Shown here: positions 3,160 to 19,151 of the stretch, one piece after another | Layout: each line of letters opens with the position of its first letter | Numbering within the stretch: the stretch's first letter is position 1 | Virus record (IMG/VR): IMGVR_UViG_2537561945_000005 | Span: 1-50,588 of that record | Reading direction: 5' to 3' (one strand) | DNA: 50,588 nt | From: a virus | Lineage: Duplodnaviria > Heunggongvirae > Uroviricota > Caudoviricetes | Notes under the pieces: generated by a model | What the model saw: only the letters and a program-made list of their open reading frames with translations | Database searches by the model: none | What the model was told of the DNA's origin: nothing | Position numbers and translations under genes: made by a program

Positions 3160-3365
3160 TGTTTGTTCTTAAGTTCGATCTCCTCCTGGCAACTTGCACA
3201 AGTCCGACAACCCTGAACAGCTAGGCGTCTTCGCTCATCTATCGGATCGCCACACTCACAACAATGAGTTGCGGATACAGTCTGGTAGTTCAGACGACGC
3301 ATTTTTATTGCTGTATTGCGCTGTAATTCTTCGATTTCTGATGCTGAATCAATGATGTCTGCCAT
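3147..3365 (-). CDS. TraR/DksA-family C4 zinc-finger protein
   Basis: 72 aa with CxxC-17-CxxC (CCECGDPI...CRTCASC), typical of phage TraR/DksA-like proteins. Confidence 0.65.
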   Translation of the reverse strand: MADIIDSASEIEELQRNTAIKMRRLNYQTVSATHCCECGDPIDERRRLAVQGCRTCASCQEEIELKNKQWGL

Positions 3366-3463
3366 CTTTCATTAATCCCTGAATTGTTGGTTAATACGCT
3401 TGAGGGTAAATGCGAATAATAAAAAAGGAGCCTGTAGCTCCCTGATGATTTTGCTTTTCATGT

Positions 3464-3679
3464 TCATCGTTCCTTAAAGACGCCGTTCAACATGCCGATC
3501 GCCAGGCTTAAATGAGTCGGTGTGAATCCCATCAGCGTTACCGTTTCGCGGTGCTTCTTTAGTACGCTACGGCAAATGTCATCGACGTTTTTATCCGGAA
3601 ACTGCTGTCTGGCTTTTTTGATTTCAGAATTAGCCTGACGGGCAATACTGCGAAGGGCGTTTTCTTGCTGATGTGTCAT
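3464..3679 (-). CDS. Small early protein, lambda orf61-like
   Basis: Position and sequence resemble lambda orf61; start chosen at the internal Met (MTHQQENALR), the ORF extends to 3745. Confidence 0.45.
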   Translation of the reverse strand: MTHQQENALRSIARQANSEIKKARQQFPDKNVDDICRSVLKKHRETVTLMGFTPTHLSLAIGMLNGVFKER

Positions 3680-3755
3680 TGAACAAGTCCCATGTCGGCA
3701 AGCATAAGCACACAGAATATGAAGCCCGCTGCCAGAAAAATGCATTCAGTGGTTG

Positions 3756-3947
3756 TCATACCTGGTCTCTCTCATCTGCTTCTGCTTTCGCCACCATCAT
3801 TTCCAGCTTTTGTGAAAGGGATGCGGCTAACGTATGAAATTCTTCGTCTGTTTCTACTGGTATTGGCACAAACCTGACTCCAATTTGAGCGAGGCTATGT
3901 GCCATCTCAATGCTCGTTCTTAACTCAACAGGAGATGCTTTGTGCAT
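3756..3947 (-). CDS. Small early protein, lambda orf63-like
   Basis: 63-aa ORF in the lambda orf63 position upstream of exo. Confidence 0.5.
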   Translation of the reverse strand: MHKASPVELRTSIEMAHSLAQIGVRFVPIPVETDEEFHTLAASLSQKLEMMVAKAEADERDQV

Positions 3948-4108
3948 ACAGCTCCCCGTTTATTATTTATCTCCTCAGCCAGCCGCTGTGCTTTCAGTGG
4001 ATTTCGGGTAACAGAAAGGCCGGGAAATACCCAGCCTCGCTTTGTAACGGAGTAGACGAAAGTGATCGCACCTACCCGGATATTATCGTGAGGATGCTTC
4101 ATCGCCAT
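3920..4108 (-). CDS. Small early protein, lambda orf60a-like
   Basis: [28 protein letters not shown] matches my recollection of lambda orf60a; immediately upstream of exo. Confidence 0.55.
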
Positions 4109-4779
4109 TGTTCCCCAAATACAAAACCAATTTCAGCCAGTGCCTCGTCCATTTTTTCGATGAACTCCGGCACCATCTCGTCAAAACTCGCCATGTAATT
4201 TTCATCCCGCTCAACCACGACATAATGCAGGCCTTCACGCTTCATTCGTGGGTCATAGTTGGCAAAGTACCAGGCATCTTTTCGTGTCACCCACATGCTG
4301 TACTGCACCTGGGCCATGTAAGCCGACTTTATGGCCTCGAAACCACCGAGCCGGAACTTCATGAAATCCCGGGAGGTAAACGGGCATTTCAGCTCAAGGC
4401 CGTTGCCGTCACTGCATAAACCATCGGGAGAGCAGGCGGTGCGCATACTTTCGTCGCGATAGATGATCGGGGATTCAGTAACATTCACGCCGGAAGTAAA
4501 CTCAAACAGGGCTCTGGCGTCGTTCTCGTACTGTTTTCCCCAGGCCAGTGCTTTAGCGTTAACTTCCGGAGCCACACCGGTGCAAACCTCGGCAAGCAGG
4601 GTGTGGAAGTAGGACATTTTCATGTCAGGCCACTTCTTTCCTGAGCGGGGCTTTGCTATCACGTTGTGAACTTCTGAAGCGGTGATGACGCCGAGCCGTA
4701 ATTTGTGCCATGCATCATCCCCCTGTTCGACAGCTCTCACGTCGATCCCGGTACGCTGCAGGATAATGTCCGGTGTCAT
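4099..4779 (-). CDS. exo: Lambda exonuclease (Red-alpha)
   Basis: 226 aa, near-identical to lambda Exo ([43 protein letters not shown]...). Confidence 0.95.
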
Positions 4780-5561
4780 GCTGCCACCTTCTGCTCAGTG
4801 GCTTTCTGTTTCAGGAATCCGAGAGCTTTCACTGCTTCGGCCTGTGTCAGTTCTGACGATGCGCGAATGTCGCGGCGAAATATCTGGGAACAGAGCGGCA
4901 ATAAGTCGTCATCCCATGTTTTATCCAGGGCAATCAGCAGAGTGTTAATCTCCTGCATGGTTTCATCGTTAACCGGAGTGATGTCGCGTTCCGGCTGACG
5001 TTCTGCAGTGTATGCGGTATTTTCGACAATGCGCTCGGCTTCATCCTTGTCATAGATACCAGCAAATCCGAAGGCCAGACGGGCACACTGAATCATGGCT
5101 TTATGACGTAACATCCGTTTGGGATGCGACTGCCACGGCCCCGTGATTTCTCTGCCTTCGCGGGTTTTGAATGGTTCGCGGCGGCATTCATCCATCCACT
5201 CGGTAACGCAGATCGGATGATTGCGGTCCTTGCGGTAAATCCGGCATGTGCAGGATTCATTGTCCTGCTCAAAGTCCATACCATCAAACTGCTGGTTTTC
5301 ATTGATGATACGGGACCAGCCATCAACGCCCACCACCGGAACGATGCCGTTCTGCTTGTCAGGGAAGGCGTAAATTTCTTTCGTCCACGGATTAAGGCCG
5401 TACTGGTTGGCGACGATCAACAATGCGATGAACTGCGCATCGCTGGCATCACCTTTAAATGCCGTCTGGCGAAGAGTGGTGATCAGTTCCTGTGGGTCGA
5501 CAGAATCCATGCCGACACGTTCAGCCAGCTTCCCAGCCAGCGTTGCGAGTGCTGTACTCAT
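4776..5561 (-). CDS. bet: Lambda Bet (Red-beta) single-strand annealing protein
   Basis: 261 aa, near-identical to lambda Bet; 4-nt overlap with exo as in lambda. Confidence 0.95.
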
Positions 5562-5566
5562 CCGTT

Positions 5567-5983
5567 TTATACCTCTGAATCAATATCAACCTGGTGGTGA
5601 GCAATGGTTTCAACCATGTACCGGATGTGTTCTGCCATGCGCTCCTGAAACTCAACATCGTCATCAAACGCACGGGTAATGGCTTTTTTGCTGGCCCCGT
5701 GGCGTTGCAAATGATCGATGCATAGCGATTCAAACAGGTGCTGGGGCAGGCCTTTTTCCATGTCGTCTGCCAGTTCTGCCTCTTTCTCTTCACGGGCGAT
5801 CTGCTGGTAGTGACGCGCCCAGCTCTGAGCCTCAAGACGATCCTGAATGTAATAAGCGTTCATGGCTGAACTCCTGAAATAGCTGTGAAAATATCGCCCG
5901 CGAAATGCCAGGCTGATTAGGAAAACAGGAAAGGGGGTTAGTGAATGCTTTTGCTTGATCTCAATTTCAGCATTAATATCCAT
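5567..5983 (-). CDS. gam: Gam, RecBCD inhibitor (long form)
   Basis: 138 aa containing the lambda Gam core [38 protein letters not shown]; the short form would start at the internal Met. Confidence 0.9.
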
Positions 5984-6081
5984 TTTTTATAAGCGTCGAC
6001 GGCTTCACGAAACATCTTTTCATCGCCAATAAAAGTGGCGATAGTGAATTTAGTCTGGATAGCCATAAGTGTTTGATCCAT
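5938..6081 (-). CDS. kil: Kil host-killing protein
   Basis: 47-aa frame [47 protein letters not shown] matches lambda Kil. Confidence 0.75.
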
Positions 6082-6214
6082 TCTTTGGGACTCCTGGCTG
6101 ATTAAGTATGTCGATAAGGCGTTTCCATCCGTCACGTAATTTACGGGTGATTCGTTCAAGTAAAGATTCGGAAGGGCAGCCAGCAACAGGCCACCCTGCA
6201 ATGGCATATTGCAT
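6050..6214 (-). CDS. cIII: CIII, FtsH/HflB inhibitor
   Basis: 54 aa [54 protein letters not shown] matches lambda CIII. Confidence 0.85.
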   Translation of the reverse strand: MQYAIAGWPVAGCPSESLLERITRKLRDGWKRLIDILNQPGVPKNGSNTYGYPD

Positions 6215-6286
6215 GGTGTGCTCCTTATTTATACATAACGAAAAACGCCTCGAGTGAAGCGTTATTGGTATGCGGTAAAACCGCAC

Positions 6287-6655
6287 TCAGACGGCCTTGA
6301 TAGTCATATCATCTGAATCAAATATTCCTGATGTATCGATATCGGTAATTCTTATTCCTTCACCTCCATCCATTGGAGGCCATCCTTCCTGACCATTTCC
6401 ATCATCCCAGTCGAACTCACAAACAACACCATATGCATTTAAGTCTTTCGAAATTGCTATAAGCAGAGCATGTTGCGCCAGCATGATTAATACAGCATTT
6501 AATAAAGAGCCGTGTTTATTGAGTCGGTATTCAGAGTCTGACCAGAAATTATTAATCTGGTGAAGTTTTTCCTCTGTCATTACGTCATGGTCGATTTCAA
6601 TTTCTATTGATGCTTTCCAGTCGTAATCAATGATGTATTTTTTGATGTTTGACAT
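6287..6655 (-). CDS. ea10: Ea10-like early protein
   Basis: 122 aa, recognised as lambda Ea10 by sequence and position. Confidence 0.75.
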   Translation of the reverse strand: MSNIKKYIIDYDWKASIEIEIDHDVMTEEKLHQINNFWSDSEYRLNKHGSLLNAVLIMLAQHALLIAISKDLNAYGVVCEFDWDDGNGQEGWPPMDGGEGIRITDIDTSGIFDSDDMTIKAV

Positions 6656-6837
6656 CTGTTCATATCCTCACAGATAAAAAATCGCCCTCACATTGGAGGG
6701 CAAAGAAGATTTCCAATAATCAGAACAAGTCGGCTCCTGTTTAGTTACGAGCGACATTGCTCCGTGTATTCACTCGTTGGAATGAATACACAGTGCAGTG
6801 TTTATTCTGTTATTTATGCCAAAAATAAAGGCCACTA

Positions 6838-7038
6838 TCAGGCAGCTTTGTTGTTCTGTTTGTCAAGTTCTCTGGCAATCATTGCCGTCGTTCGTATTGC
6901 CCATTTATCGACATATTTCCCATCTTCCATTACAGGAAACATTTCTTCAGGCTTAACCATGCATTCCGATTGCAGCTTGCATCCATTACATCGCTTGAAT
7001 TGTCCACACCATTGATTTTTATCAATAGTCGTAGTCAT
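6838..7038 (-). CDS. ral: Ral restriction-alleviation protein
   Basis: 66 aa MTTTIDKNQWCGQFKRCNGCKLQSECMVKPEEMF... matches lambda Ral. Confidence 0.85.
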   Translation of the reverse strand: MTTTIDKNQWCGQFKRCNGCKLQSECMVKPEEMFPVMEDGKYVDKWAIRTTAMIARELDKQNNKAA

Positions 7039-7108
7039 ACGGATAGTCCTGGTATTGTTCCATCACATCCTGAGGATGCTCTTCGAACTCTTCAAATTCT
7101 TCTTCCAT
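7022..7108 (-). CDS. Small acidic ORF, lambda orf28-like
   Basis: 28-aa ORF MEEEFEEFEEHPQDVMEQYQDYPYDYDY overlapping the ral start, as in lambda; too short for the ORF track. Confidence 0.35.
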   Translation of the reverse strand: MEEEFEEFEEHPQDVMEQYQDYPYDYDY

Positions 7109-7251
7109 ATATCACCTTAAATAGTGGATTGCGGTAGTAAAGATTGTGCCTGTCTTTTAACCACATCAGGCTCGGTGGTTCTCATGTACCCCTACAGCGA
7201 GAAATCGGATAAACTCTATTCACCCCTACAGAGAGCAAAAGAGAAACGCCG

Positions 7252-7833
7252 ATGAACAACTCATGGTGGCAGGAACTAATGCATTTTTTCCTGCAAGGAA
7301 TGACACTTAAACAGTTGATTCATATGCTAATCATCCTGATCATATTGATTATTGTTATGCCGGTAAGCGTAAAAGAATGGATAAACCTGCATAATCCAGA
7401 AATCCTTCCTCATTACTGGATGTATTACATCCTGTTGTTTTGCGTTAGCTATGTGCTTAACGGCGTTGTTAATTCCGCTTATCACGCTGTGACTGAAAGA
7501 ATTGAGGTATCCGCTGCTCAGAAGCGAAAATCTAAAGAAGAAAAATATGTGCAAGATTTGTTTGATTCATTAACTCTTGGAGAAAGAGCGTATTTGGCAT
7601 TCGCTGTAGCCGCTAATAACCAGCTACAAACGGAAAAGGGAGCTCATGAATCAATTTCATTGCTCAAAAAAGGACTCCTCGTTCGAAGGCCTCCTGCTGT
7701 TGGATATCCTGATACCGACCGTTTTGTTATTCCTGAAAGCTATAGACATGAGTGCTACATTCGGTTTGCCGGGAAGGCAGACAGCCTTATGGATGAACTT
7801 ATCGCTCAGGATAAGCATGGCAAAAACAAGTAA
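7252..7833 (+). CDS. sieB: Superinfection exclusion protein B
   Basis: 193-aa membrane protein on the opposite strand between ral and N, matching lambda SieB in sequence and position. Confidence 0.8.
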   Translation: MNNSWWQELMHFFLQGMTLKQLIHMLIILIILIIVMPVSVKEWINLHNPEILPHYWMYYILLFCVSYVLNGVVNSAYHAVTERIEVSAAQKRKSKEEKYVQDLFDSLTLGERAYLAFAVAANNQLQTEKGAHESISLLKKGLLVRRPPAVGYPDTDRFVIPESYRHECYIRFAGKADSLMDELIAQDKHGKNK

Positions 7834-7849
7834 TTAGCAAATGAATTTA

Positions 7850-8158
7850 TCATCTCGCCGTCAGTTGTTTTGATTTCCGGTAGCCTGCCGCGTAAATAGC
7901 TACGTTTGGCAGGCAAACACTTCCACTGCATTCATCTACTTTCTTGCAGCGAAGGCTTCCGAGTGATATTGCTTTTTCAGAAAGGCTTAACCGCTTTCTC
8001 GGGTCTTCCTGAACAGGTTCCTCACTGTCTGTGCCGAAGATCGAATCGATGATGTTGCAGATGGAATCACGCTCGATGGCCAGCTTTCTGCGCCGCTCAT
8101 GACGGCGAGTTTTGGCATTTCCTGCAAATGTTGATTTTCCGTACACGATTACCGTCAT
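7850..8158 (-). CDS. N: Antiterminator N, P22 gene 24 type
   Basis: MTVIVYGKSTFAGNAKTRRHERRRKLAIERD arginine-rich N-terminus matches P22 gp24 rather than lambda N; start at the internal Met, ORF extends to 8242. Confidence 0.8.
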   Translation of the reverse strand: MTVIVYGKSTFAGNAKTRRHERRRKLAIERDSICNIIDSIFGTDSEEPVQEDPRKRLSLSEKAISLGSLRCKKVDECSGSVCLPNVAIYAAGYRKSKQLTAR

Positions 8159-8276
8159 GATGTTTTCCTCATGTGAAATGGCTTTGGTGGTGATGCGCCA
8201 GATGCTGATCTTCTGGTTGCTGTCGTTACTGCTGCAATTCACATCACCCCAAACCCATCTCGTTTGGTATCTGTTC

Positions 8277-8310
8277 GCGCTTTGTCAGCGCATCATCGAA
8301 GTTAAAGAGC
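8277..8310 (-). promoter_or_regulatory. nutL (boxB 8277-8291, boxA ~8300-8310)
   Basis: Minus-strand reading gives GCTCTTTAAC (boxA-like) followed by GCGCTGACAAAGCGC, the P22-type boxB hairpin, just upstream of N. Confidence 0.7.
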
Positions 8311-8566
8311 CTGCCAATCTGTTCCGTTTGGCTGCCAGCGTCCTGCTGATGGTGATGATAATGAACCAATAGTTCGATATTATCAAGAACTATAAGTACG
8401 AATTGTTTGTGGTTCATTAACTTAATGGGATATGTTTTTGATATGTAAAGGAGTTTATTTTTGTAAAGATTGAAGATTGGTCAGTAGGAGAGAAAGAATT
8501 GTTTGCTGGCGTGTTAGTTCGTGGGTTAGCACATGTGCGGATGTTAAATAAGGTAGACGATCGTGA

Positions 8567-8596
8567 GGAAAAGAAAAACCGGCGCTGAGGCCGGGT
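8567..8596 (-). terminator. Rho-independent terminator ending the cI / rex-position transcript
   Basis: Minus-strand hairpin CCGGC-CTCAGC-GCCGG followed by a T-rich run, immediately downstream of the 8601-9500 ORF. Confidence 0.6.
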
Positions 8597-8600
8597 ATAA

Positions 8601-9500
8601 TTATTTGATTATTTCTTTTATAAAGACTTCTTTCGGTTGGTATTTTTTATCTGATGATTTGAGCTGGTACGTTATTGTTATATCAGCACGTACAGCAAAT
8701 TTACCTGCAAAATCTGATGGGTTTACGTTGGGGCCAAGAACCATATTTACTCTTCGATCTATTAATCCAGGGATAACAGCAGCCCAACCTTTCTCTGGAT
8801 TGTCGAGGTCTAATGCACGGATTTCAACATCAACATCAAAATGATCCTGAGTATATGACTCTGGTGTGAAGACAACTTCAGTTGGGGCTTTTTTAATGGT
8901 TTCAGCGGGAATGGTCACTGTACCACCCCCTGTACCTATGACCATCGTAGATCCTTCGTCTGCCCTAGCTGGGGCAAGCGTCTTAATGGAACTTTTGGCA
9001 AGAGTCTTCTTATTGGTTACCGTGCTTTCTATGATTGCTTGAAGACGGTCAGGTGAAATATTAGCCTCACCGGCACCAATATTGATGATTGTATTGTTAT
9101 TTGCTTCAAAGTGGGAGGTGTTGCTTGGAGCCATAGCCTTAGTTGCTAGAACTAAGCCATATCCAACCAGACCAATAACAACAGCACCAACGAGAGCGTT
9201 TCTCATTTTCCCATTTCCGATCTTTGCATGAGCGCCAGCAAGAAACTTGTCCATTTCTTCTTGGCTACCAAAGAGGAGTTTAATAACAATATCTTCATAA
9301 AGGCTTCCTGCTTCTAATCGCGCAACATGCACCGATATATCAAGGATATTAGCCCCTGTCAGTTCCTGCAAAACACCTTCTGATTGTTTTGCGATGGCCT
9401 CCCACCCTTGAAGGGAGGTAATCACATCTTTGATGCTTACAGGTTCTTTAGTTGAATAATATATGTTTTCGGTAAAGGTTAAAGATAATTCTTGGGACAT
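8601..9500 (-). CDS. Membrane protein in the rex position (candidate superinfection-exclusion or abortive-infection factor)
   Basis: 299-aa ORF directly downstream of cI on the same strand, where lambda carries rexAB; one central hydrophobic helix (ALVGAVVIGLVGYGLVLATKAMA); no family recognised. Confidence 0.6.
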   Translation of the reverse strand: MSQELSLTFTENIYYSTKEPVSIKDVITSLQGWEAIAKQSEGVLQELTGANILDISVHVARLEAGSLYEDIVIKLLFGSQEEMDKFLAGAHAKIGNGKMRNALVGAVVIGLVGYGLVLATKAMAPSNTSHFEANNNTIINIGAGEANISPDRLQAIIESTVTNKKTLAKSSIKTLAPARADEGSTMVIGTGGGTVTIPAETIKKAPTEVVFTPESYTQDHFDVDVEIRALDLDNPEKGWAAVIPGLIDRRVNMVLGPNVNPSDFAGKFAVRADITITYQLKSSDKKYQPKEVFIKEIIK

Positions 9501-9629
9501 CCGAGCCCTCGCTGTTTCTTTCGATTTGCTGTGTTAAGCTAATATTTTAATATCCATGTTTCTGTTTGCTTGCAGTGTGTTTCTCACCACCATCCAAACG
9601 TACTGGTTACTAGCTATGTGATGATGAAG

Positions 9630-10337
9630 TCATGAACTTTTCAGCCATTCCCTGGCCTCGATGTCATCTAGGTGGCGAGATTGCTTCAGAATACCAGCTA
9701 CATACTCCACCTTTGCTACTTGATGATAAGGCAACGTTATTGGCCTGTGGTCTTGGTTGATGCTTGTAAATTGGTATTCTCCGTCTCTGTCATAGCCAAG
9801 AACCTTGATCATGTTGTGCCCTTCAATGGTTCTGACAAACACCTCATCACCTGGGAATACTTTGGTGTTAGGCTCAATGAGTACATATTCTCCTGATTTT
9901 ATTCTGGGCCACATGCTGTCTCCTTTTACACGAAGACCAAAGGCATCTGGATCATCGCTATAAATCTTGAGCCACCCATCGCGCTCTTCGGTCATCTCGA
10001 TGGCACCATCAACACCAAGAATTGCCTCACCAACCACGCGCACTAACCCTTTTTTTAATTTGCCAACAATTGAAAAAGTATCTTCATCATTCGCTCCATT
10101 TAACGAAGTGCCGTGCTGAAGCCAAATAACATCAACGTTTAGAAATTTCGCAAGCGCATTCATTTTTTCCTGGCGTGGTAAAGACTCAGCATTAAACCAT
10201 TTGCTAACGCCTTTGGACGAAAGAGAAAGGGCACGGGCTATGGCCATTCCCCTACCATGTTCATCAAGACCAGCTTCTTTACAGGCTTGCGCTAGCCGCT
10301 GGGCGAATTCTTTGCGCACTTTTTCATTCTGAACCAT
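9630..10337 (-). CDS. cI: CI-type repressor with HTH and LexA-like S24 peptidase domain
   Basis: 235 aa with N-terminal HTH (GMAIARALSLSSKGVSKW) and C-terminal GDSMWP Ser/Lys autopeptidase motif; divergently arranged with cro. Confidence 0.85.
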   Translation of the reverse strand: MVQNEKVRKEFAQRLAQACKEAGLDEHGRGMAIARALSLSSKGVSKWFNAESLPRQEKMNALAKFLNVDVIWLQHGTSLNGANDEDTFSIVGKLKKGLVRVVGEAILGVDGAIEMTEERDGWLKIYSDDPDAFGLRVKGDSMWPRIKSGEYVLIEPNTKVFPGDEVFVRTIEGHNMIKVLGYDRDGEYQFTSINQDHRPITLPYHQVAKVEYVAGILKQSRHLDDIEAREWLKSS

Positions 10338-10415
10338 GAGTACGATACTAAAGCACTTGCAAAAACTTTCAGTTCAACCATAATGCGTACTGAAAGTACG
10401 AAAAAGGACATTCCT
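10338..10415. promoter_or_regulatory. Divergent operator/promoter region (oR, pRM, pR)
   Basis: 78-bp cI-cro intergenic region containing inverted half-sites ACTTTCAGT / ACTGAAAGT. Confidence 0.5.
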
Positions 10416-10643
10416 ATGCAAAATCTTGATGAGCCGATTAAAGGTGTCGGCATCCCTGAAGTTGCGAAGGCTTGTGGAGTTAGCGAAAGGGCTGTCTATA
10501 AGTGGCTCAAAAACGGCTTCCTCCCTAAGACTGAGTTTTTTGGGAAAACGAAATACGCATCAAAAATCGAAGAGATTTCTGGTGGCAAATATCAAGCAAG
10601 CGAAATGCTTGAAATAAGCAAAAAGAACCTTCTGGCAGCATAA
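10416..10643 (+). CDS. cro: Cro-like HTH repressor
   Basis: 75 aa with HTH VAKACGVSERAVYKWLKNG; start chosen at the Met with AAGGA upstream, ORF track begins at 10383. Confidence 0.7.
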   Translation: MQNLDEPIKGVGIPEVAKACGVSERAVYKWLKNGFLPKTEFFGKTKYASKIEEISGGKYQASEMLEISKKNLLAA

Positions 10644-10650
10644 GTAACAC

Positions 10651-10685
10651 CGCTCTTTATCAATCTGCACCGCCGACAACGCGGT
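10651..10685 (+). promoter_or_regulatory. nutR (boxA CGCTCTTTATCA, boxB hairpin)
   Basis: boxA consensus at 10651-10662 and a 5-bp stem hairpin ACCGC-CGACAAC-GCGGT at 10669-10685, between cro and cII. Confidence 0.6.
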
Positions 10686-10749
10686 AACTAATTAAGAACT
10701 CATCGAAAGATGCGTATTAGTGATTATTTACCTATGGAAATAGTAAGAA

Positions 10750-11049
10750 ATGGAACAAACAAATTACAGCAAACTATCACAGCGCGACGTTGATCGCGCA
10801 GAAACAGATTTACTTATCAACCTGTCAACGCTTACTCAGCGCGGTCTGGCAAAGATGATTGGCTGTCATGAATCGAAGATAAGCAGAACAGACTGGAGGT
10901 TTATAGCTTCGGTCTTGTGTGCTTTTGGCATGGCATCAGACATCAGTCCGATTAGCAGAGCTTTTAAGTATGCGCTTGATGAAATCACCAATAAAAAACG
11001 CCCGGTGTGCAAGACCGAGCGTTCTAATCAAATCCAGATGGAATTCTGA
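10750..11049 (+). CDS. cII: CII transcriptional activator
   Basis: C-terminus ITNKKRPVCKTERSNQIQMEF matches lambda CII; HTH in the middle; position after cro. Confidence 0.8.
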   Translation: MEQTNYSKLSQRDVDRAETDLLINLSTLTQRGLAKMIGCHESKISRTDWRFIASVLCAFGMASDISPISRAFKYALDEITNKKRPVCKTERSNQIQMEF

Positions 11050-11071
11050 GGTCATTACTGGATCTATCAAC
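10995..11071 (-). ncRNA. oop: oop antisense RNA (by positional homology)
   Basis: The cII 3' end and the 33-bp cII-O spacer are lambda-like; coordinates transferred from lambda oop, which overlaps the cII 3' end. Confidence 0.45.
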
Positions 11072-11081
11072 AGGAGTCATT

Positions 11082-11981
11082 ATGACAAATACAGCAAAAA
11101 TACTCAACTTCGGCAGAGGTAACTTTGCCGGACAGGAGCGTAATGTGGCAGATCTCGATGATGGTTACGCCAGACTATCAAATATGCTGCTTGAGGCTTA
11201 TTCAGGCGCAGATCTGACCAAGCGACAGTTTAAAGTGCTGCTTGCCATTCTGCGTAAAACCTATGGGTGGAATAAACCAATGGACAGAATCACCGATTCT
11301 CAACTTAGCGAGATTACAAAGTTACCTGTCAAACGGTGCAATGAAGCCAAGTTAGAACTCGTCAGAATGAATATTATCAAGCAGCAAGGCGGCATGTTTG
11401 GACCAAATAAAAACATCTCAGAATGGTGTATCCCTCAAAACGAGGGAAAATCCCCTAAAACGAGGGATAAAACATCCCTCAAATTGGGGGATTGCTATCC
11501 CTCAAAACAGGGGGACACAAAAGACACTATTACAAAAGAAAAAAGAAAAGATTATTCGTCCGAGAATTCTGGCGAATCCTCTGACCAGCCAGAAAACGAT
11601 CTTTCTGTGGTTAAACCGGATGCTGCAATTCAGAGCGGCAGCAAGTGGGGGACAGCAGAAGACCTGACCGCCGCAGAGTGGATGTTTGACATGGTGAAGA
11701 CTATCGCACCATCAGCCAGAAAACCGAATTTTGCTGGGTGGGCTAACGATATCCGCCTGATGCGTGAACGTGACGGACGTAACCACCGCGACATGTGTGT
11801 ACTGTTCCGCTGGGCATGCCAGGACAACTTCTGGTCCGGTAACGTGCTGAGTCCGGCTAAACTCCGCGACAAGTGGACCCAGCTCGAAATCAACCGTAAC
11901 AAGCAACAGGCTGGCGTGACAGCCAGAAAACCAAAACTCGACCTGACAAACACTGACTGGATTTACGGGGTGGATTTATGA
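11082..11981 (+). CDS. O: Replication initiator O
   Basis: 299 aa, near-identical to lambda O. Confidence 0.95.
   Translation: MTNTAKILNFGRGNFAGQERNVADLDDGYARLSNMLLEAYSGADLTKRQFKVLLAILRKTYGWNKPMDRITDSQLSEITKLPVKRCNEAKLELVRMNIIKQQGGMFGPNKNISEWCIPQNEGKSPKTRDKTSLKLGDCYPSKQGDTKDTITKEKRKDYSSENSGESSDQPENDLSVVKPDAAIQSGSKWGTAEDLTAAEWMFDMVKTIAPSARKPNFAGWANDIRLMRERDGRNHRDMCVLFRWACQDNFWSGNVLSPAKLRDKWTQLEINRNKQQAGVTARKPKLDLTNTDWIYGVDL
11431..11560 (+). repeat. ori-lambda: four iterons plus AT-rich segment
   Basis: Four 17-19 bp iterons (TCCCTCAAAACGAGGGA-like) at 11431, 11451, 11474 and 11497, followed by an A/T-rich stretch inside O. Confidence 0.85.
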
Positions 11982-12679
11982 AAAACATCGCCGCACAGAT
12001 GGTTAACTTTGACCGTGAGCAGATGCGTCGGATCGCCAACAACATGCCGGAACAGTACGACGAAAAGCCGCAGGTACAGCAGGTAGCGCAGATCATCAAC
12101 GGTGTGTTCAGCCAGTTACTGGCAACTTTCCCGGCGAGCCTGGCTAACCGTGACCAGAATGAACTGAACGAAATCCGCCGCCAGTGGGTTCTGGCTTTCC
12201 GGGAAAACGGGATCACCACAATGGAACAGGTTAACGCAGGAATGCGCGTAGCCCGTCGGCAGAATCGACCATTCCTGCCATCACCCGGGCAGTTTGTCGC
12301 CTGGTGCCGGGAAGAAGCATCCGTTAACGCCGGGCTGCCAAACGTCAGCGAGCTGGTTGATATGGTTTACGAGTATTGCCGGAAGCGAGGCCTGTATCCG
12401 GATGCGGAGTCTTATCCGTGGAAATCAAACGCGCACTACTGGCTGGTTACCAACCTGTATCAGAACATGCGGGCCAATGCGCTTACTGATGCGGAATTAC
12501 GCCGTAAGGCCGCAGATGAGCTTGTCCATATGACTGCGAGAATTAACCGTGGTGAGGCGATCCCTGAACCAGTAAAACAACTTCCTGTCATGGGCGGTAG
12601 ACCTCTAAATCGTGCACAGGCTCTGGCGAAGATCGCAGAACTCAAAGCTAAGTTCGGACTGAAAGGAGCAAGTGTATGA
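11978..12679 (+). CDS. P: Replication protein P (DnaB loader)
   Basis: 233 aa, near-identical to lambda P. Confidence 0.95.
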   Translation: MKNIAAQMVNFDREQMRRIANNMPEQYDEKPQVQQVAQIINGVFSQLLATFPASLANRDQNELNEIRRQWVLAFRENGITTMEQVNAGMRVARRQNRPFLPSPGQFVAWCREEASVNAGLPNVSELVDMVYEYCRKRGLYPDAESYPWKSNAHYWLVTNLYQNMRANALTDAELRRKAADELVHMTARINRGEAIPEPVKQLPVMGGRPLNRAQALAKIAELKAKFGLKGASV

Positions 12680-12966
12680 CGGGCAAAGAGGCAATTATTC
12701 ATTACCTGGGGACGCATAATAGCTTCTGTGCGCCGGACGTTGCCGCGCTAACAGGCGCAACAGTAACCAGCATAAATCAGGCCGCGGCTAAAATGGCACG
12801 GGCAGGTCTTCTGGTTATCGAAGGTAAGGTCTGGCGAACGGTGTATTACCGGTTTGCTACCAAGGAAGAACGGGAAGGAAAGATGAGCACGAACCTGATT
12901 TTTAAGGAGTGTCGCCAGAGTGCCGCGATGAAACGGGTATTGGCGGTATATGGAGTTAAAAGATGA
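12676..12966 (+). CDS. ren: Ren
   Basis: 96 aa matching lambda Ren. Confidence 0.85.
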   Translation: MTGKEAIIHYLGTHNSFCAPDVAALTGATVTSINQAAAKMARAGLLVIEGKVWRTVYYRFATKEEREGKMSTNLIFKECRQSAAMKRVLAVYGVKR

Positions 12967-13039
12967 CCATCTACATTACTGAGCTAATAACAGGCCTGCT
13001 GGTAATCGCAGGCCTTTTTATTTGGGGGAGAGGGAAGTC

Positions 13040-13480
13040 ATGAAAAAACTAACCTTTGAAATTCGATCTCCAGCACATCAGCAAAACGCTATTCACGCAG
13101 TACAGCAAATCCTTCCAGACCCAACCAAACCAATCGTAGTAACCATTCAGGAACGCAACCGCAGCTTAGACCAAAACAGGAAGCTATGGGCCTGCTTAGG
13201 TGACGTCTCTCGTCAGGTTGAATGGCATGGTCGCTGGCTGGATGCAGAAAGCTGGAAGTGTGTGTTTACCGCAGCATTAAAGCAGCAGGATGTTGTTCCT
13301 AACCTTGCCGGGAATGGCTTTGTGGTAATAGGCCAGTCAACCAGCAGGATGCGTGTAGGCGAATTTGCGGAGCTATTAGAGCTTATACAGGCATTCGGTA
13401 CAGAGCGTGGCGTTAAGTGGTCAGACGAAGCGAGACTGGCTCTGGAGTGGAAAGCGAGATGGGGAGATCGGGCTGCATGA
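13040..13480 (+). CDS. ninB: NinB (Orf) recombination mediator
   Basis: 146 aa from MKKLTFEIRSPAHQQNAIHAV matches lambda NinB. Confidence 0.85.
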   Translation: MKKLTFEIRSPAHQQNAIHAVQQILPDPTKPIVVTIQERNRSLDQNRKLWACLGDVSRQVEWHGRWLDAESWKCVFTAALKQQDVVPNLAGNGFVVIGQSTSRMRVGEFAELLELIQAFGTERGVKWSDEARLALEWKARWGDRAA

Positions 13481-14004: not shown

Positions 14005-14177
14005 GGCGACAGCGACGAAGTTTCACCGACATCATCTGCGAAAACTGCAAATACCTTCCAACGAAACGCTCCAGAAATAAACGCAAGCCAATCCCAAAAG
14101 AATCTGACGTAAAAACCTTCAATTACACAGCTCACCTGTGGGATATCCGGTGGCTAAGATATCGTGCGAGGAAATGA
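14001..14177 (+). CDS. ninE: NinE-family protein
   Basis: 58 aa [37 protein letters not shown] matches the lambdoid NinE family. Confidence 0.6.
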
Positions 14178-17771: not shown

Positions 17772-18268
17772 TGCCTCCATCATTACGAAAAGCCGTTGCT
17801 GCTGCTATTGGTGGCGGAGCAATTGCTATAGCATCAGTGTTAATTACTGGCCCAAGTGGTAACGATGGTCTGGAAGGTGTCAGCTACATACCATACAAAG
17901 ATATTGTTGGTGTATGGACTGTATGTCACGGGCATACAGGAAAAGACATCATGCTCGGTAAAACGTATACCAAAGCAGAATGCAAAGCCCTCCTGAATAA
18001 AGACCTTGCCACGGTCGCCAGACAAATTAACCCGTACATCAAAGTCGATATACCGGAAACAATGCGCGGCGCTCTTTACTCATTCGTTTACAACGTGGGT
18101 GCTGGCAATTTCAGAACATCGACGCTTCTTCGCAAAATAAACCAAGGCGATATCAAAGGCGCATGTGATCAGCTACGTCGCTGGACATATGCTGGCGGTA
18201 AGCAATGGAAAGGTCTCATGACTCGTCGTGAGATTGAGCGTGAAATCTGTTTGTGGGGTCAGCAATGA
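17771..18268 (+). CDS. R: SAR endolysin (lysozyme), R21 type
   Basis: 165 aa with N-terminal signal-anchor-release segment ([18 protein letters not shown]) and T4-lysozyme-like body. Confidence 0.85.
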
Positions 18269-18726
18269 ACAGAGTAACCGCGATTATCTCCGCTCTGGTT
18301 ATCTGCATCATCGTCGGCCTGTCATGGGCTGTTAATCATTACCGTGATAACGCCATTACCTACAAAGCCCAGCGCGACAAAAATGCCAGAGAACTGAAGC
18401 TGGCGAACGCGGCAATTACTGACATGCAGATGCGTCAGCGTGATGTTGCTGCGCTCGATGCAAAATACACGAAGGAGTTAGCTGATGCGAAAGCTGAAAA
18501 TGATGCTCTGCGTGATGATGTTGCCGCTGGTCGTCGTCGGTTGCACATCAAAGCAGTCTGTCAGTCAGTGCGTGAAGCCACCACCGCCTCCGGCGTGGAT
18601 AATGCAGCCTCCCCCCGACTGGCAGACACCGCTGAACGGGATTATTTCACCCTCAGAGAGAGGCTGATCACTATGCAAAAACAACTGGAAGGAACCCAGA
18701 AGTATATTAATGAGCAGTGCAGATAG
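18265..18726 (+). CDS. Rz: Rz i-spanin
   Basis: N-terminal TM then coiled-coil; ATGA overlap with the endolysin stop. ORF track begins at GTG 18253. Confidence 0.8.
18485..18667 (+). CDS. Rz1: Rz1 o-spanin lipoprotein, embedded in Rz
   Basis: 60-aa +1-frame ORF inside Rz with lipobox VVVGC and a proline-rich body. Confidence 0.7.
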
Positions 18727-18757
18727 AGCTGCCCATATCGATGGGCAACTCATGCAA

Positions 18758-19051
18758 TTATTGTGAGCAATACACACGCGCTTCCAGCGGAGTATAAATG
18801 CCTAAAGTAATAAAACCGAGCAATCCATTTACGAATGTTTGCTGGGTTTCTGTTTTAACAACATTTTCTGCGCCGCCACAAATTTTGGCTGCATCAACAG
18901 TTTTCTCCTGTCCAATTCCCGAAACGAAGAAATGATGGGTGATGGTTTCCTTTGGTGTTACTGCTGTCGGTTTGTTTCCAACAGTAAACGTCTGTTGAGC
19001 ACATCCTGTAATAAGCATTGCCAGAGCGGCAGAAAACAACATTTTTTTCAT
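18758..19051 (-). CDS. bor: Bor lipoprotein (serum-resistance, lysogenic conversion)
   Basis: 97 aa MKKMLFSAALAMLITGCAQQTFTVGNK... matches lambda Bor; lipobox LITGC. Confidence 0.85.
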   Translation of the reverse strand: MKKMLFSAALAMLITGCAQQTFTVGNKPTAVTPKETITHHFFVSGIGQEKTVDAAKICGGAENVVKTETQQTFVNGLLGFITLGIYTPLEARVYCSQ

Positions 19052-19151
19052 CTTATTATCCTGTATTGTTAAAAACAGCAGAATCCTATGTGACAACAAT
19101 TAAACGATAGTTAAATGGATTGATGAAAATTAAAACTATATAGGTGTACGG

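What the first reader, a model, noticed from the sequence alone, without database searches (positions are those of the whole stretch)
8277..10685. P22-type N and nut sites embedded in an otherwise lambda-like early region
Both nutL and nutR have boxB hairpins of the P22 type (GCGCTGACAAAGCGC at nutL; a GACAA-containing loop at nutR), matching the P22-type arginine-rich motif of N. The genes on either side (sieB, ral, cII, O) are lambda-type. The recombination joints that swapped the N/nut specificity unit and the immunity region must lie within a few hundred bp of these sites.
Basis: partly seen in the sequence, partly recalled or inferred. Interest (0 to 1): 0.35.

Follow-up and report, generated by a model that had tools for sequence, protein, structure and literature searches.

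The report
P22-type N/nut module in lambdoid prophage
This is an ordinary, already-sequenced E. coli lambda-like prophage whose early antitermination unit (N protein plus its two RNA target sites) is of the Salmonella phage P22 type; this is a textbook case of lambdoid phage mosaicism and not a new system.

Summary
N (7850-8158, minus strand, 102 aa) is 71% identical to P22 gp24. Its arginine-rich motif matches the P22 N-peptide of PDB 1A4T at 18 of 19 residues. The nutL boxB (8277-8291) and nutR boxB (10669-10685) are identical to the boxB hairpins at P22's annotated nut sites. Each follows a boxA at P22 spacing. The boxA+GACAA pattern occurs only at these two places in the window (0.01 expected by chance).

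sieB is P22-type (83% aa) and unrelated to lambda SieB. cII is 39% identical to lambda CII and is of a Stx-phage type. The non-lambda insert spans about 7216-11040. Its left joint lies in a promoter block shared by lambda and P22. Its right joint lies in the last codons of cII.

The insert is itself mosaic:
- sieB plus the N 3' end.
- The N 5' part, nutL and pL/oL.
- A 299-aa gene of unknown function in the rexAB slot.
- A Stx-phage-type cI-cro-cII immunity region with a roughly 80-bp P22-type nutR cassette.

The same 4.3 kb is 100% identical in E. coli chromosomes, and 7800-10750 is 99.8% identical in the phage 1H12 family. It is already known and of low interest.

The parts
6838..7038 (-). 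ral, lambda-type. It lies at the end of the left lambda-like arm, which runs 3170-7231.
   Evidence: Pfam Ral match E = 3e-48. Window 6000-7231 is 98.4% identical to lambda.
7134..7215 (+). Left joint. This block is nearly identical in the window, lambda and P22 and covers the position of P22's annotated sieB promoter. To its right the window follows P22 and lambda diverges.
   Evidence: Three-way alignment. P22 promoter annotation.
7252..7833 (+). sieB, P22-type superinfection exclusion gene, convergent with N.
   Evidence: 83% aa identity to P22 SieB. E = 0.58 against lambda SieB. Pfam SieB match.
7850..8158 (-). N antiterminator, P22 gp24 type, 102 aa. The arginine-rich motif is residues 13-31. 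The last approximately 23 aa are also shared with 933W/HK97-type N proteins.
   Evidence: 71% identity to gp24 over the full length, with 40 of the first 42 residues identical. PF25694 match over the full length, E = 5e-41. Only the arginine-rich motif resembles lambda N. C-terminal alignment.
8277..8291 (-). nutL boxB, GCGCUGACAAAGCGC.
   Evidence: Identical to the P22 nutL boxB and to the 15-mer RNA of PDB 1A4T as quoted in PMC11480772. Hairpin fold.
8303..8311 (-). nutL boxA, GGCUCUUUA. It has G where P22 and lambda have C at position 1.
   Evidence: The same G variant occurs in 1H12 and in Stx2a phage EH1965.
8358..8386 (-). pL candidate promoter (TTGATA-17-CATTAT). The transcript start near 8351 begins the CATCAGCAGGACGC block conserved with lambda and P22, and similarity to P22 ends here.
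   Evidence: Promoter scan. Alignments. BLAST end point at 8352.
8363..8399 (.). oL: two 13-bp operator-like palindromes (8363-8375 and 8387-8399) overlapping pL. Their operator role is inferred.
   Evidence: All five exact matches to the motif GWACTNWWRGTWY fall in oL or oR. The motif was derived from these same sites, so this is descriptive and not a test.
8579..8594 (-). Intrinsic terminator closing the cI operon. It lies in a 39-bp island (8558-8596) that is 95% identical to the sequence just downstream of lambda rexB.
8601..9500 (-). 299-aa gene of unknown function occupying the rexAB slot downstream of cI. It has one hydrophobic stretch (residues 102-122).
   Evidence: Full-length match to phrog_4506, function unknown. 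No significant Pfam, PADLOC or NCBIfam hit. Among phage records it occurs only in the 1H12 family. AF2 model with pLDDT 84 has no fold match.
9630..10337 (-). cI repressor (HTH plus S24 peptidase) of a Stx-phage immunity type. GenBank annotates the Stx2 phage I homologue as similar to H-19B CI.
   Evidence: Pfam. 97% nt identity to Stx2a phages, Stx2 phage I and P27.
10331..10399 (.). oR: three operator-like palindromes (10331-10343, 10363-10375, 10387-10399), with the pR candidate TTGCAA-16-CATAAT at 10357-10384.
10416..10643 (+). cro, 75 aa.
   Evidence: HTH matches in Pfam and PHROG. PGAP annotation of the identical E. coli locus.
10651..10659 (+). nutR boxA, CGCUCUUUA.
   Evidence: Identical to the P22 nutR boxA.
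10669..10685 (+). nutR boxB, ACCGCCGACAACGCGGU.
   Evidence: Identical to the P22 nutR boxB. Fold. It is part of an approximately 80-bp cassette (about 10656-10735) that is replaced in Stx2 phage I and BP-4795, which carry another N type.
10750..11049 (+). cII, Stx-phage type. The right joint to the lambda-like arm falls in its last codons (11029-11046), in the conserved cII-end/oop-terminator block.
   Evidence: 39% aa identity to lambda CII. Pfam Phage_CII match. Three-way alignment. oop-like terminator at 10995-11025 on the minus strand.
11082..11981 (+). O, lambda-type. It opens the right lambda-like arm, for which BLAST reports identity from 10985 to 13480.
   Evidence: 98.6% nt identity to lambda.

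Best explanation
The window is a natural E. coli lambdoid prophage of the phage 1H12 kind. Its early-left arm (exo to ral) and its replication arm (O, P, ren, ninB) are about 98% lambda. A 3.8-kb stretch between them (about 7216-11040) comes from other lambdoid lineages.

That stretch carries a complete, self-consistent P22-class N antitermination unit: an N protein with the P22 arginine-rich motif, plus nutL and nutR sites whose boxB hairpins are the P22 ones.

The mechanism below is inferred from the lambda and P22 paradigm and was not tested here:
1. After repressor loss, pL and pR fire.
2. N is translated from the pL transcript.
3. Its arginine-rich motif binds the GACAA boxB hairpins on both nascent transcripts, while NusB/NusE bind boxA.
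4. With NusA and NusG, the complex makes RNA polymerase resistant to downstream terminators. These include the lambda-derived terminators in the replication/nin arm, because N-modified polymerase is not terminator-specific.

The unit stays matched because nutL and nutR lie just outside the immunity region. Recombination in short conserved blocks swaps N, nut cassettes and immunity regions as modules. These blocks are the sieB promoter, the N 3' end, the pL start, the cro stop with boxA, and the cII end with oop.
For: - N is 71% identical to P22 gp24 and matches PF25694 over its full length.
- Residues 14-32 match the 1A4T peptide NAKTRRHERRRKLAIERDT at 18 of 19 positions, and the nutL boxB equals the 1A4T RNA.
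- Both boxB hairpins and both boxA-boxB spacer lengths equal P22's.
- The motif occurs only twice, in the correct positions and orientations, against 0.01 expected.
- The lambda-like arms and joints are mapped.
- N type and nutR type co-vary. Stx2a phage EH1965 has the same cI-cro-cII, a P22-type N and this same nutR. Stx2 phage I and BP-4795 have the same cI-cro-cII, a 933W/HK97-type N and a different nutR cassette.
- Eleven complete phage genome records of the 1H12 family carry this region at 99.8% identity, which I take as a sign that the combination is viable.
- 146 of 5426 complete E. coli genomes hold at least 80% of the 4.3-kb region, and 257 hold the N 5' part with nutL.
Against: - No functional data were obtained here.
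- The nutL boxA has G instead of C at position 1. The NusB-NusE-BoxA structure paper describes position-1 variation as tolerated (PMC3177189), and the variant is shared by the related phages.
- The nutR hairpin alone is not statistically remarkable as a fold (z = -1.4). Its identification rests on identity with P22's annotated nutR.
- The boxB sequence alone does not discriminate N families. The nutL of Stx2 phage I, which has a 933W/HK97-type N, also carries GCGCTGACAAAGCGC.
Confidence: 0.9

Rival explanations
1. The N/nut unit was acquired recently and directly from Salmonella phage P22 by a lambda-like phage, with joints immediately beside the nut sites.
For: The boxB hairpins and the arginine-rich motif are identical to P22's. 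Similarity to P22 stops at the pL start and resumes at the cro stop.
Against: The sieB-N-nutL block is only 80% nt identical to P22 and nutR with its flanks only 72%. The same segments are 93-97% identical to E. coli Stx2a phages and 99-100% identical to E. coli prophages. The block that replaced lambda sequence runs from sieB to cII, not just from N to nutR.
Confidence: 0.05
2. N here belongs functionally to the 933W/HK97 specificity class and not to the P22 class, because GACAA boxB hairpins are shared by both classes.
For: The nutL of Stx2 phage I, with a 933W/HK97-type N, carries the same 15-mer, and its nutR contains CGCTGACAAAGCG. The C-terminal approximately 23 aa of this N match the 933W-type C-terminus.
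Against: The arginine-rich motif and the first 42 residues are those of P22 gp24 (40 of 42 identical), whereas overall identity to the Stx2 phage I N is 45%. The boxA, spacers and nutR boxB are P22's and differ from the extended nutR of Stx2 phage I.
Confidence: 0.04
3. The nut-like sequences are chance matches in intergenic DNA and have no function.
For: The nutR hairpin is energetically unremarkable (z = -1.4). Rfam reports no nut family match.
Against: There are two hits against 0.01 expected, both in transcript sense at the canonical positions: between pL and N, and just after cro. They are base-for-base identical with P22's annotated sites, conserved in related phages, and nutR co-varies with N type.
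Confidence: 0.01

Closest known systems
Salmonella phage P22 gene 24 protein with P22 nutL and nutR (solved complex PDB 1A4T)
   Same: The arginine-rich motif is identical. Both boxB hairpins are identical and the boxA-boxB spacing is the same. The gene order sieB(+), N(-), nutL, pL ... cro, nutR is the same.
   Different: Overall identity is 71% aa and 80% nt. The nutL boxA has G at position 1. The immunity region between the nut sites is unrelated to P22 immC. The host is E. coli and the backbone is lambda-like.
Escherichia phage 1H12 family (NC_049947 and 10 further records; genus Jouyvirus) and E. coli prophages such as in strains BE311, F41 and K99S
   Same: Window 7800-10750 is 99.8% identical to the phages, and 7000-11300 is 100% identical to the chromosomal prophages. 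N is already annotated there as an N-type antiterminator.
   Different: 1H12 lacks about 340 bp including ral (window 6807-7146) and is somewhat more diverged in sieB (96.5% over 7232-8352). The nut sites are not annotated in those records.
Laboratory lambda-P22 hybrids (lambda immP22; Botstein and Herskowitz 1974, listed in the references of PMC11893012) and classical imm21 and imm434 hybrids. What these hybrids contain is stated from my own knowledge, not from a tool result.
   Same: A lambda backbone carries a foreign immunity region. When the substitution extends leftward through N, the foreign N comes with its cognate nut sites.
   Different: In this window the immunity region is not P22's but a Stx-phage type, so N/nut and immunity have separate origins. 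This is a natural isolate and not a laboratory cross.
Stx phages with the same immunity type (Stx2a phage EH1965 group; Stx2 converting phage I; BP-4795; P27)
   Same: cI-cro-cII are 92-97% identical. The EH1965 group also shares the N 5' part, nutL, pL/oL and nutR.
   Different: Stx2 phage I and BP-4795 carry a 933W/HK97-type N and a different nutR cassette. The N of EH1965 appears to be interrupted near codon 72 next to a transposase ORF. All of them have different genes in the rexAB slot.
Lambda N with lambda nutL and nutR
   Same: The architecture and presumed mechanism are the same. So are the positions of the nut sites relative to pL, N, cro and cII, and the conserved pL transcript start.
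   Different: Lambda boxB is GCCCUGAAGAAGGGC (nutL) or GCCCUGAAAAAGGGC (nutR), and its boxA is CGCUCUUA. The N proteins align only over the arginine-rich motif (E = 0.023).

Membership tests
P22-type N antiterminator (gp24; Pfam PF25694 N_peptide) | Full-length sequence membership in the family | tested here: met
   PF25694 match at 139.7 bits against a cutoff of 27.9, covering residues 1-102 on profile positions 1-100 of 100. 71% identity to P22 gp24.
P22-type N antiterminator (gp24; Pfam PF25694 N_peptide) | N-terminal arginine-rich motif of the P22 specificity class (NAKTRRHERRRKLAIERDT) | tested here: met
   Window N residues 14-32 read NAKTRRHERRRKLAIERDS, matching 18 of 19 positions.
P22-type N antiterminator (gp24; Pfam PF25694 N_peptide) | Gene is the first on the pL transcript, downstream of nutL | tested here: met
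   pL candidate at 8358-8386, nutL at 8277-8311 and N at 7850-8158, all on the minus strand.
P22-type N antiterminator (gp24; Pfam PF25694 N_peptide) | Antitermination activity that depends on cognate nut sites and on host Nus factors | not testable with these tools
   This needs reporter or genetic assays. The only indirect support is that complete phage genome records carry the identical module.
P22-class nut site (boxA, spacer, boxB with GACAA loop) | boxB is a 5-bp stem with a GACAA pentaloop identical to P22 boxB-left or boxB-right | tested here: met
   Both boxB sequences are identical to the P22 record. Folds.
P22-class nut site (boxA, spacer, boxB with GACAA loop) | boxA CGCUCUUUA lies 9-11 nt upstream of boxB | tested here: met
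   The nutR boxA is an exact match. The nutL boxA is GGCUCUUUA, with one change at position 1. Spacers are 11 and 9 nt, as in P22.
P22-class nut site (boxA, spacer, boxB with GACAA loop) | One site in each early transcript, in sense orientation, upstream of the first terminators | tested here: met
   nutL lies between pL and N and nutR lies 8 nt after the cro stop. There are no other copies in the window. The first terminators themselves were not mapped.
Lambda-type N/nut | Lambda N sequence and a GAAAA or GAAGA boxB loop | tested here: not met
   N aligns to lambda N only over the arginine-rich motif (E = 0.023). The boxB sequences differ.
   ral and O meet it at 98% nt. sieB does not (E = 0.58 against lambda and 83% aa to P22). 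cII does not (39% aa).

The most novel reading that the evidence does not exclude
The N/nut unit itself leaves no room for novelty. The least-understood element inside the finding's coordinates is the 299-aa gene at 8601-9500. It sits in the rexAB slot, on the same strand and downstream of cI, and ends at the terminator shared with lambda. It has one hydrophobic stretch and an invariant ANNNxIxNIGAG motif. It has no match in Pfam, PADLOC, NCBIfam or PDB folds. Homologues occur in unrelated mobile-element contexts (a Serratia primase island and a Mu-like prophage). It could be a previously uncharacterised membrane protein, expressed in the lysogen, that excludes or aborts infection by other phages.
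Probability: 0.3. Interest if true: 0.4.

Novelty: already known. Interest (0 to 1): 0.1.

Why it matters
It matters little beyond annotation. The region is a clean natural example of a long-established principle. In lambdoid phages the N/nut specificity unit, the immunity region and the flanking arms are exchangeable modules, joined at short conserved sequences. N type and nut type travel together.

Two practical points follow:
- The nut sites could be added to the annotation of the 1H12 family and of many E. coli prophages.
- The plus-strand "hypothetical protein" called across nutL in several records is probably spurious.

The P22-class N/nutL segment is present in about 5% of complete E. 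coli genomes, so it is not a Salmonella peculiarity.

Tried and rejected
- An Rfam scan of 6000-13000 with permissive thresholds returned no nut or boxB family match. It found only the lambda cIII thermoregulator and two chance hits, so it could not test the nut sites.
- A PDB sequence search with N found nothing relevant, probably because the solved P22 N chains are short peptides.
- Cocozaki et al. 2008 on P22 boxB requirements (PMC2446750) is not held. The P22 genome record and PMC11480772 were used for the reference sequences.
- For the 299-aa protein, Pfam gave only a sub-threshold DUF1206 hit. PADLOC and NCBIfam gave nothing, and PHROGs gave a family of unknown function.
- A confident AF2 model of that protein (pLDDT 84) had a best PDB TM-score of 0.19. 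Its best viral-library matches had TM-scores of 0.3-0.4, to uncharacterised and DUF6575-domain proteins. No function could be assigned.
- Direct recent transfer from P22 was considered and rejected on identity levels.
- The operator motif scan is circular, because the motif was built from the same sites. It is reported only as description.
Full report
**Observation**

On the minus strand, GCGCTGACAAAGCGC lies at 8277-8291. In the transcript it is preceded by GGCTCTTTA (8303-8311) after an 11-nt spacer. On the plus strand, CGCTCTTTA (10651-10659) is followed after 9 nt by ACCGCCGACAACGCGGT (10669-10685).

I extracted the nutL and nutR regions annotated in the P22 record NC_002371 and compared them side by side. 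Both boxB sequences and both spacer lengths are identical to P22's. The only differences are one base in the nutL boxA (G for C at position 1) and two bases in the nutR spacer. The lambda sites are clearly different: boxB GCCCTGAAGAAGGGC or GCCCTGAAAAAGGGC, and boxA CGCTCTTA.

The pattern GCTCTTTA-N(10-19)-GACAA occurs only twice in the 50.6-kb window. Both copies are in transcript sense. Shuffles give 0.01 expected, and none of 100 shuffles reached two matches.

The nutL boxB folds into the expected 5-bp stem with a GACAA pentaloop (z = -3.4). The nutR boxB folds as a 5-bp stem with a 7-nt loop, exactly as the identical P22 sequence would.

**N protein**

The ORF at 7850-8158 on the minus strand (102 aa from the ATG that PGAP also uses) is 71% identical to P22 gp24 over its whole length. 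Forty of the first 42 residues are identical. It matches Pfam PF25694 from end to end (E = 5e-41).

Residues 14-32 (NAKTRRHERRRKLAIERDS) differ at one position from the P22 N-peptide in PDB 1A4T. The RNA in that structure is the same 15-mer as this nutL boxB (PMC11480772). Against lambda N, only the arginine-rich motif aligns weakly (E = 0.023).

The last approximately 23 residues (CLPNVAIYAAGYRKSKQLTAR) are also shared with the 933W/HK97-type N of Stx2 phage I. Exchange within N has been described for phage L against P22 (PMC8022706).

**Flanks and joints**

BLAST against lambda shows 98.4% identity for 6000-7231 and 98.6% for 10985-13396.

sieB is not. It is 83% identical to P22 SieB and unrelated to lambda SieB. 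cII is not either. It is 39% identical to lambda CII and 97% identical at the DNA level to the cII of Stx phages.

The left joint lies in a block (7134-7215) that is nearly identical in the window, lambda and P22. This block covers the position of P22's annotated sieB promoter. Immediately after it the window follows P22, while lambda diverges.

The right joint lies in the last codons of cII (11029-11046), in the conserved cII-end/oop-terminator block. There the informative sites switch from the Stx-phage pattern to the lambda pattern.

**Internal structure of the 3.8-kb insert**

- **7216 to about 7916 (sieB plus the N 3' end).** This is 99% identical to phage PhiR11_1 and 86-89% to Salmonella P22-like phages.
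- **7941-8467 (N 5' part, nutL, pL/oL).** This is 93-96% identical to a large group of Stx2a phages. Similarity to P22 (80% overall) ends at 8352, the conserved pL transcript start CATCAGCAGGACGC.
- **8468-9601 (the rexAB slot).** This holds a 299-aa gene. It ends at a terminator within a 39-bp island that is 95% identical to the sequence just after lambda rexB. Among phage records, only the 1H12 family has this gene.
- **9602-11045 (cI, cro, nutR, cII).** This is 97% identical to Stx2a phages and related to P27 and Stx2 phage I.

Stx2 phage I and BP-4795 share cI-cro-cII but encode a 933W/HK97-type N. In them the sequence is identical to the window through the cro stop and the first bases of boxA. 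A different nutR then follows, and identity resumes at the cII ribosome-binding site.

nutR is therefore an approximately 80-bp cassette (about 10656-10735) that co-varies with N type. This is the best comparative support available here for a functional N-nut pairing.

One caveat applies. The nutL of Stx2 phage I also carries GCGCTGACAAAGCGC. The GACAA boxB is thus shared by two N families, and the P22 assignment rests on the arginine-rich motif, boxA, the spacers and the nutR form together.

**Immunity region**

cI is an HTH plus S24-peptidase repressor, and cro is a 75-aa HTH protein. A 13-bp palindromic motif occurs exactly five times without mismatch in the window. Two copies overlap the pL candidate and three overlap the pR/pRM region. 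The motif was derived from these same sites, so this is descriptive only.

**Prevalence**

Eleven complete phage genome records of the 1H12 family (genus Jouyvirus) are 99.8% identical over 7800-10750. E. coli strains BE311, F41 and K99S are 100% identical over 7000-11300.

Of 5426 complete E. coli genomes, 146 hold at least 80% of that 4.3 kb. A further count shows that 257 genomes hold the N 5' part with nutL. PGAP already names the gene "transcriptional antitermination N peptide".

**Mechanism**

This is inferred from the lambda and P22 paradigm and was not tested here. N made from the pL transcript binds boxB on both nascent early transcripts through its arginine-rich motif, and NusB/NusE bind boxA. 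With NusA and NusG, the complex renders RNA polymerase termination-resistant. This allows expression of the lambda-type recombination genes to the left and the lambda-type replication and nin genes to the right.

The G at position 1 of the nutL boxA is the only departure from the P22 consensus. Position 1 differs among functional boxA sequences, and the NusB-NusE-BoxA structure paper describes that difference as tolerated (PMC3177189). The variant is also conserved in 1H12 and in the Stx2a phages.

**The 299-aa gene**

- It is a full-length member of phrog_4506, whose function is unknown.
- It has no significant match in Pfam, PADLOC or NCBIfam.
- All 55 homologues found are unnamed or "hypothetical" (one UniRef label names a domain); the named records are from several Enterobacterales genera and Accumulibacter.
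- Homologues lie in other mobile contexts: a Serratia primase island and a Mu-like prophage.
- A confident AF2 model (pLDDT 84) finds no meaningful fold match in the PDB or the viral library.
- Its position suggests a lysogen-expressed accessory gene, but nothing more can be said.

**Verdict**

The flank description is half wrong, and the donor is a lineage resident in E. coli phages, not P22 itself. The whole arrangement is already in public phage and genome records. It illustrates well-known lambdoid mosaicism and is of low interest.

Noticed in passing
window 8601-9500 (-): A 299-aa gene of unknown function sits in the rexAB slot, downstream of cI and ending at a lambda-like terminator. It belongs to phrog_4506. 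It has one hydrophobic stretch (residues 102-122) and an invariant ANNNxIxNIGAG motif. It has no defence-database or fold match. Homologues occur in a Serratia primase island and a Mu-like prophage.
   Followed up: partly
L004 (Stx2a phage EH1965) 1826-3302: In a large group of Stx2a-converting phages, the P22-type N reading frame departs from the window's N after about residue 72. A transposase-like ORF (296 aa) lies immediately downstream. N therefore looks interrupted by an insertion sequence in those phages.
   Followed up: no
window 10656-10735; L007 4560-4680; L008: Stx2 phage I and BP-4795 share cI-cro-cII with the window but have a 933W/HK97-type N and a different nutR cassette. The cassette is swapped exactly between boxA and the cII ribosome-binding site. 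Their nutL still carries the P22 15-mer boxB but has no canonical boxA nearby.
   Followed up: partly
window 8157-8372 (+): RAST and PGAP annotate a plus-strand "hypothetical protein" (for example WP_000971596) that runs antisense across the N leader, nutL and the pL start. It is probably a spurious call.
   Followed up: no
window 6807-7146: The window carries lambda-type ral plus about 340 bp that phage 1H12 lacks. This is an indel between otherwise 98-99% identical genomes.
   Followed up: no
window 6169-6227 (-): Rfam reports a Lambda_thermo match (the cIII thermoregulator RNA) at 88.5 bits. This is expected in the lambda-like left arm.
   Followed up: no
window 8249-8267 (-): A short hairpin (CCAAACGAGATGGGTTTGG) just downstream of the nutL boxB in the N leader is conserved in P22 and partly in lambda. 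It may belong to the N-leader structure.
   Followed up: no
window 13481-50588: Outside the early-left and replication arms, only two short stretches (14008-14174 and 18265-19105, the latter matching the Rz/bor part of lambda) match lambda by megablast. The late and structural genes are not lambda's. This fits the placement of 1H12 in the genus Jouyvirus and not Lambdavirus.
   Followed up: no
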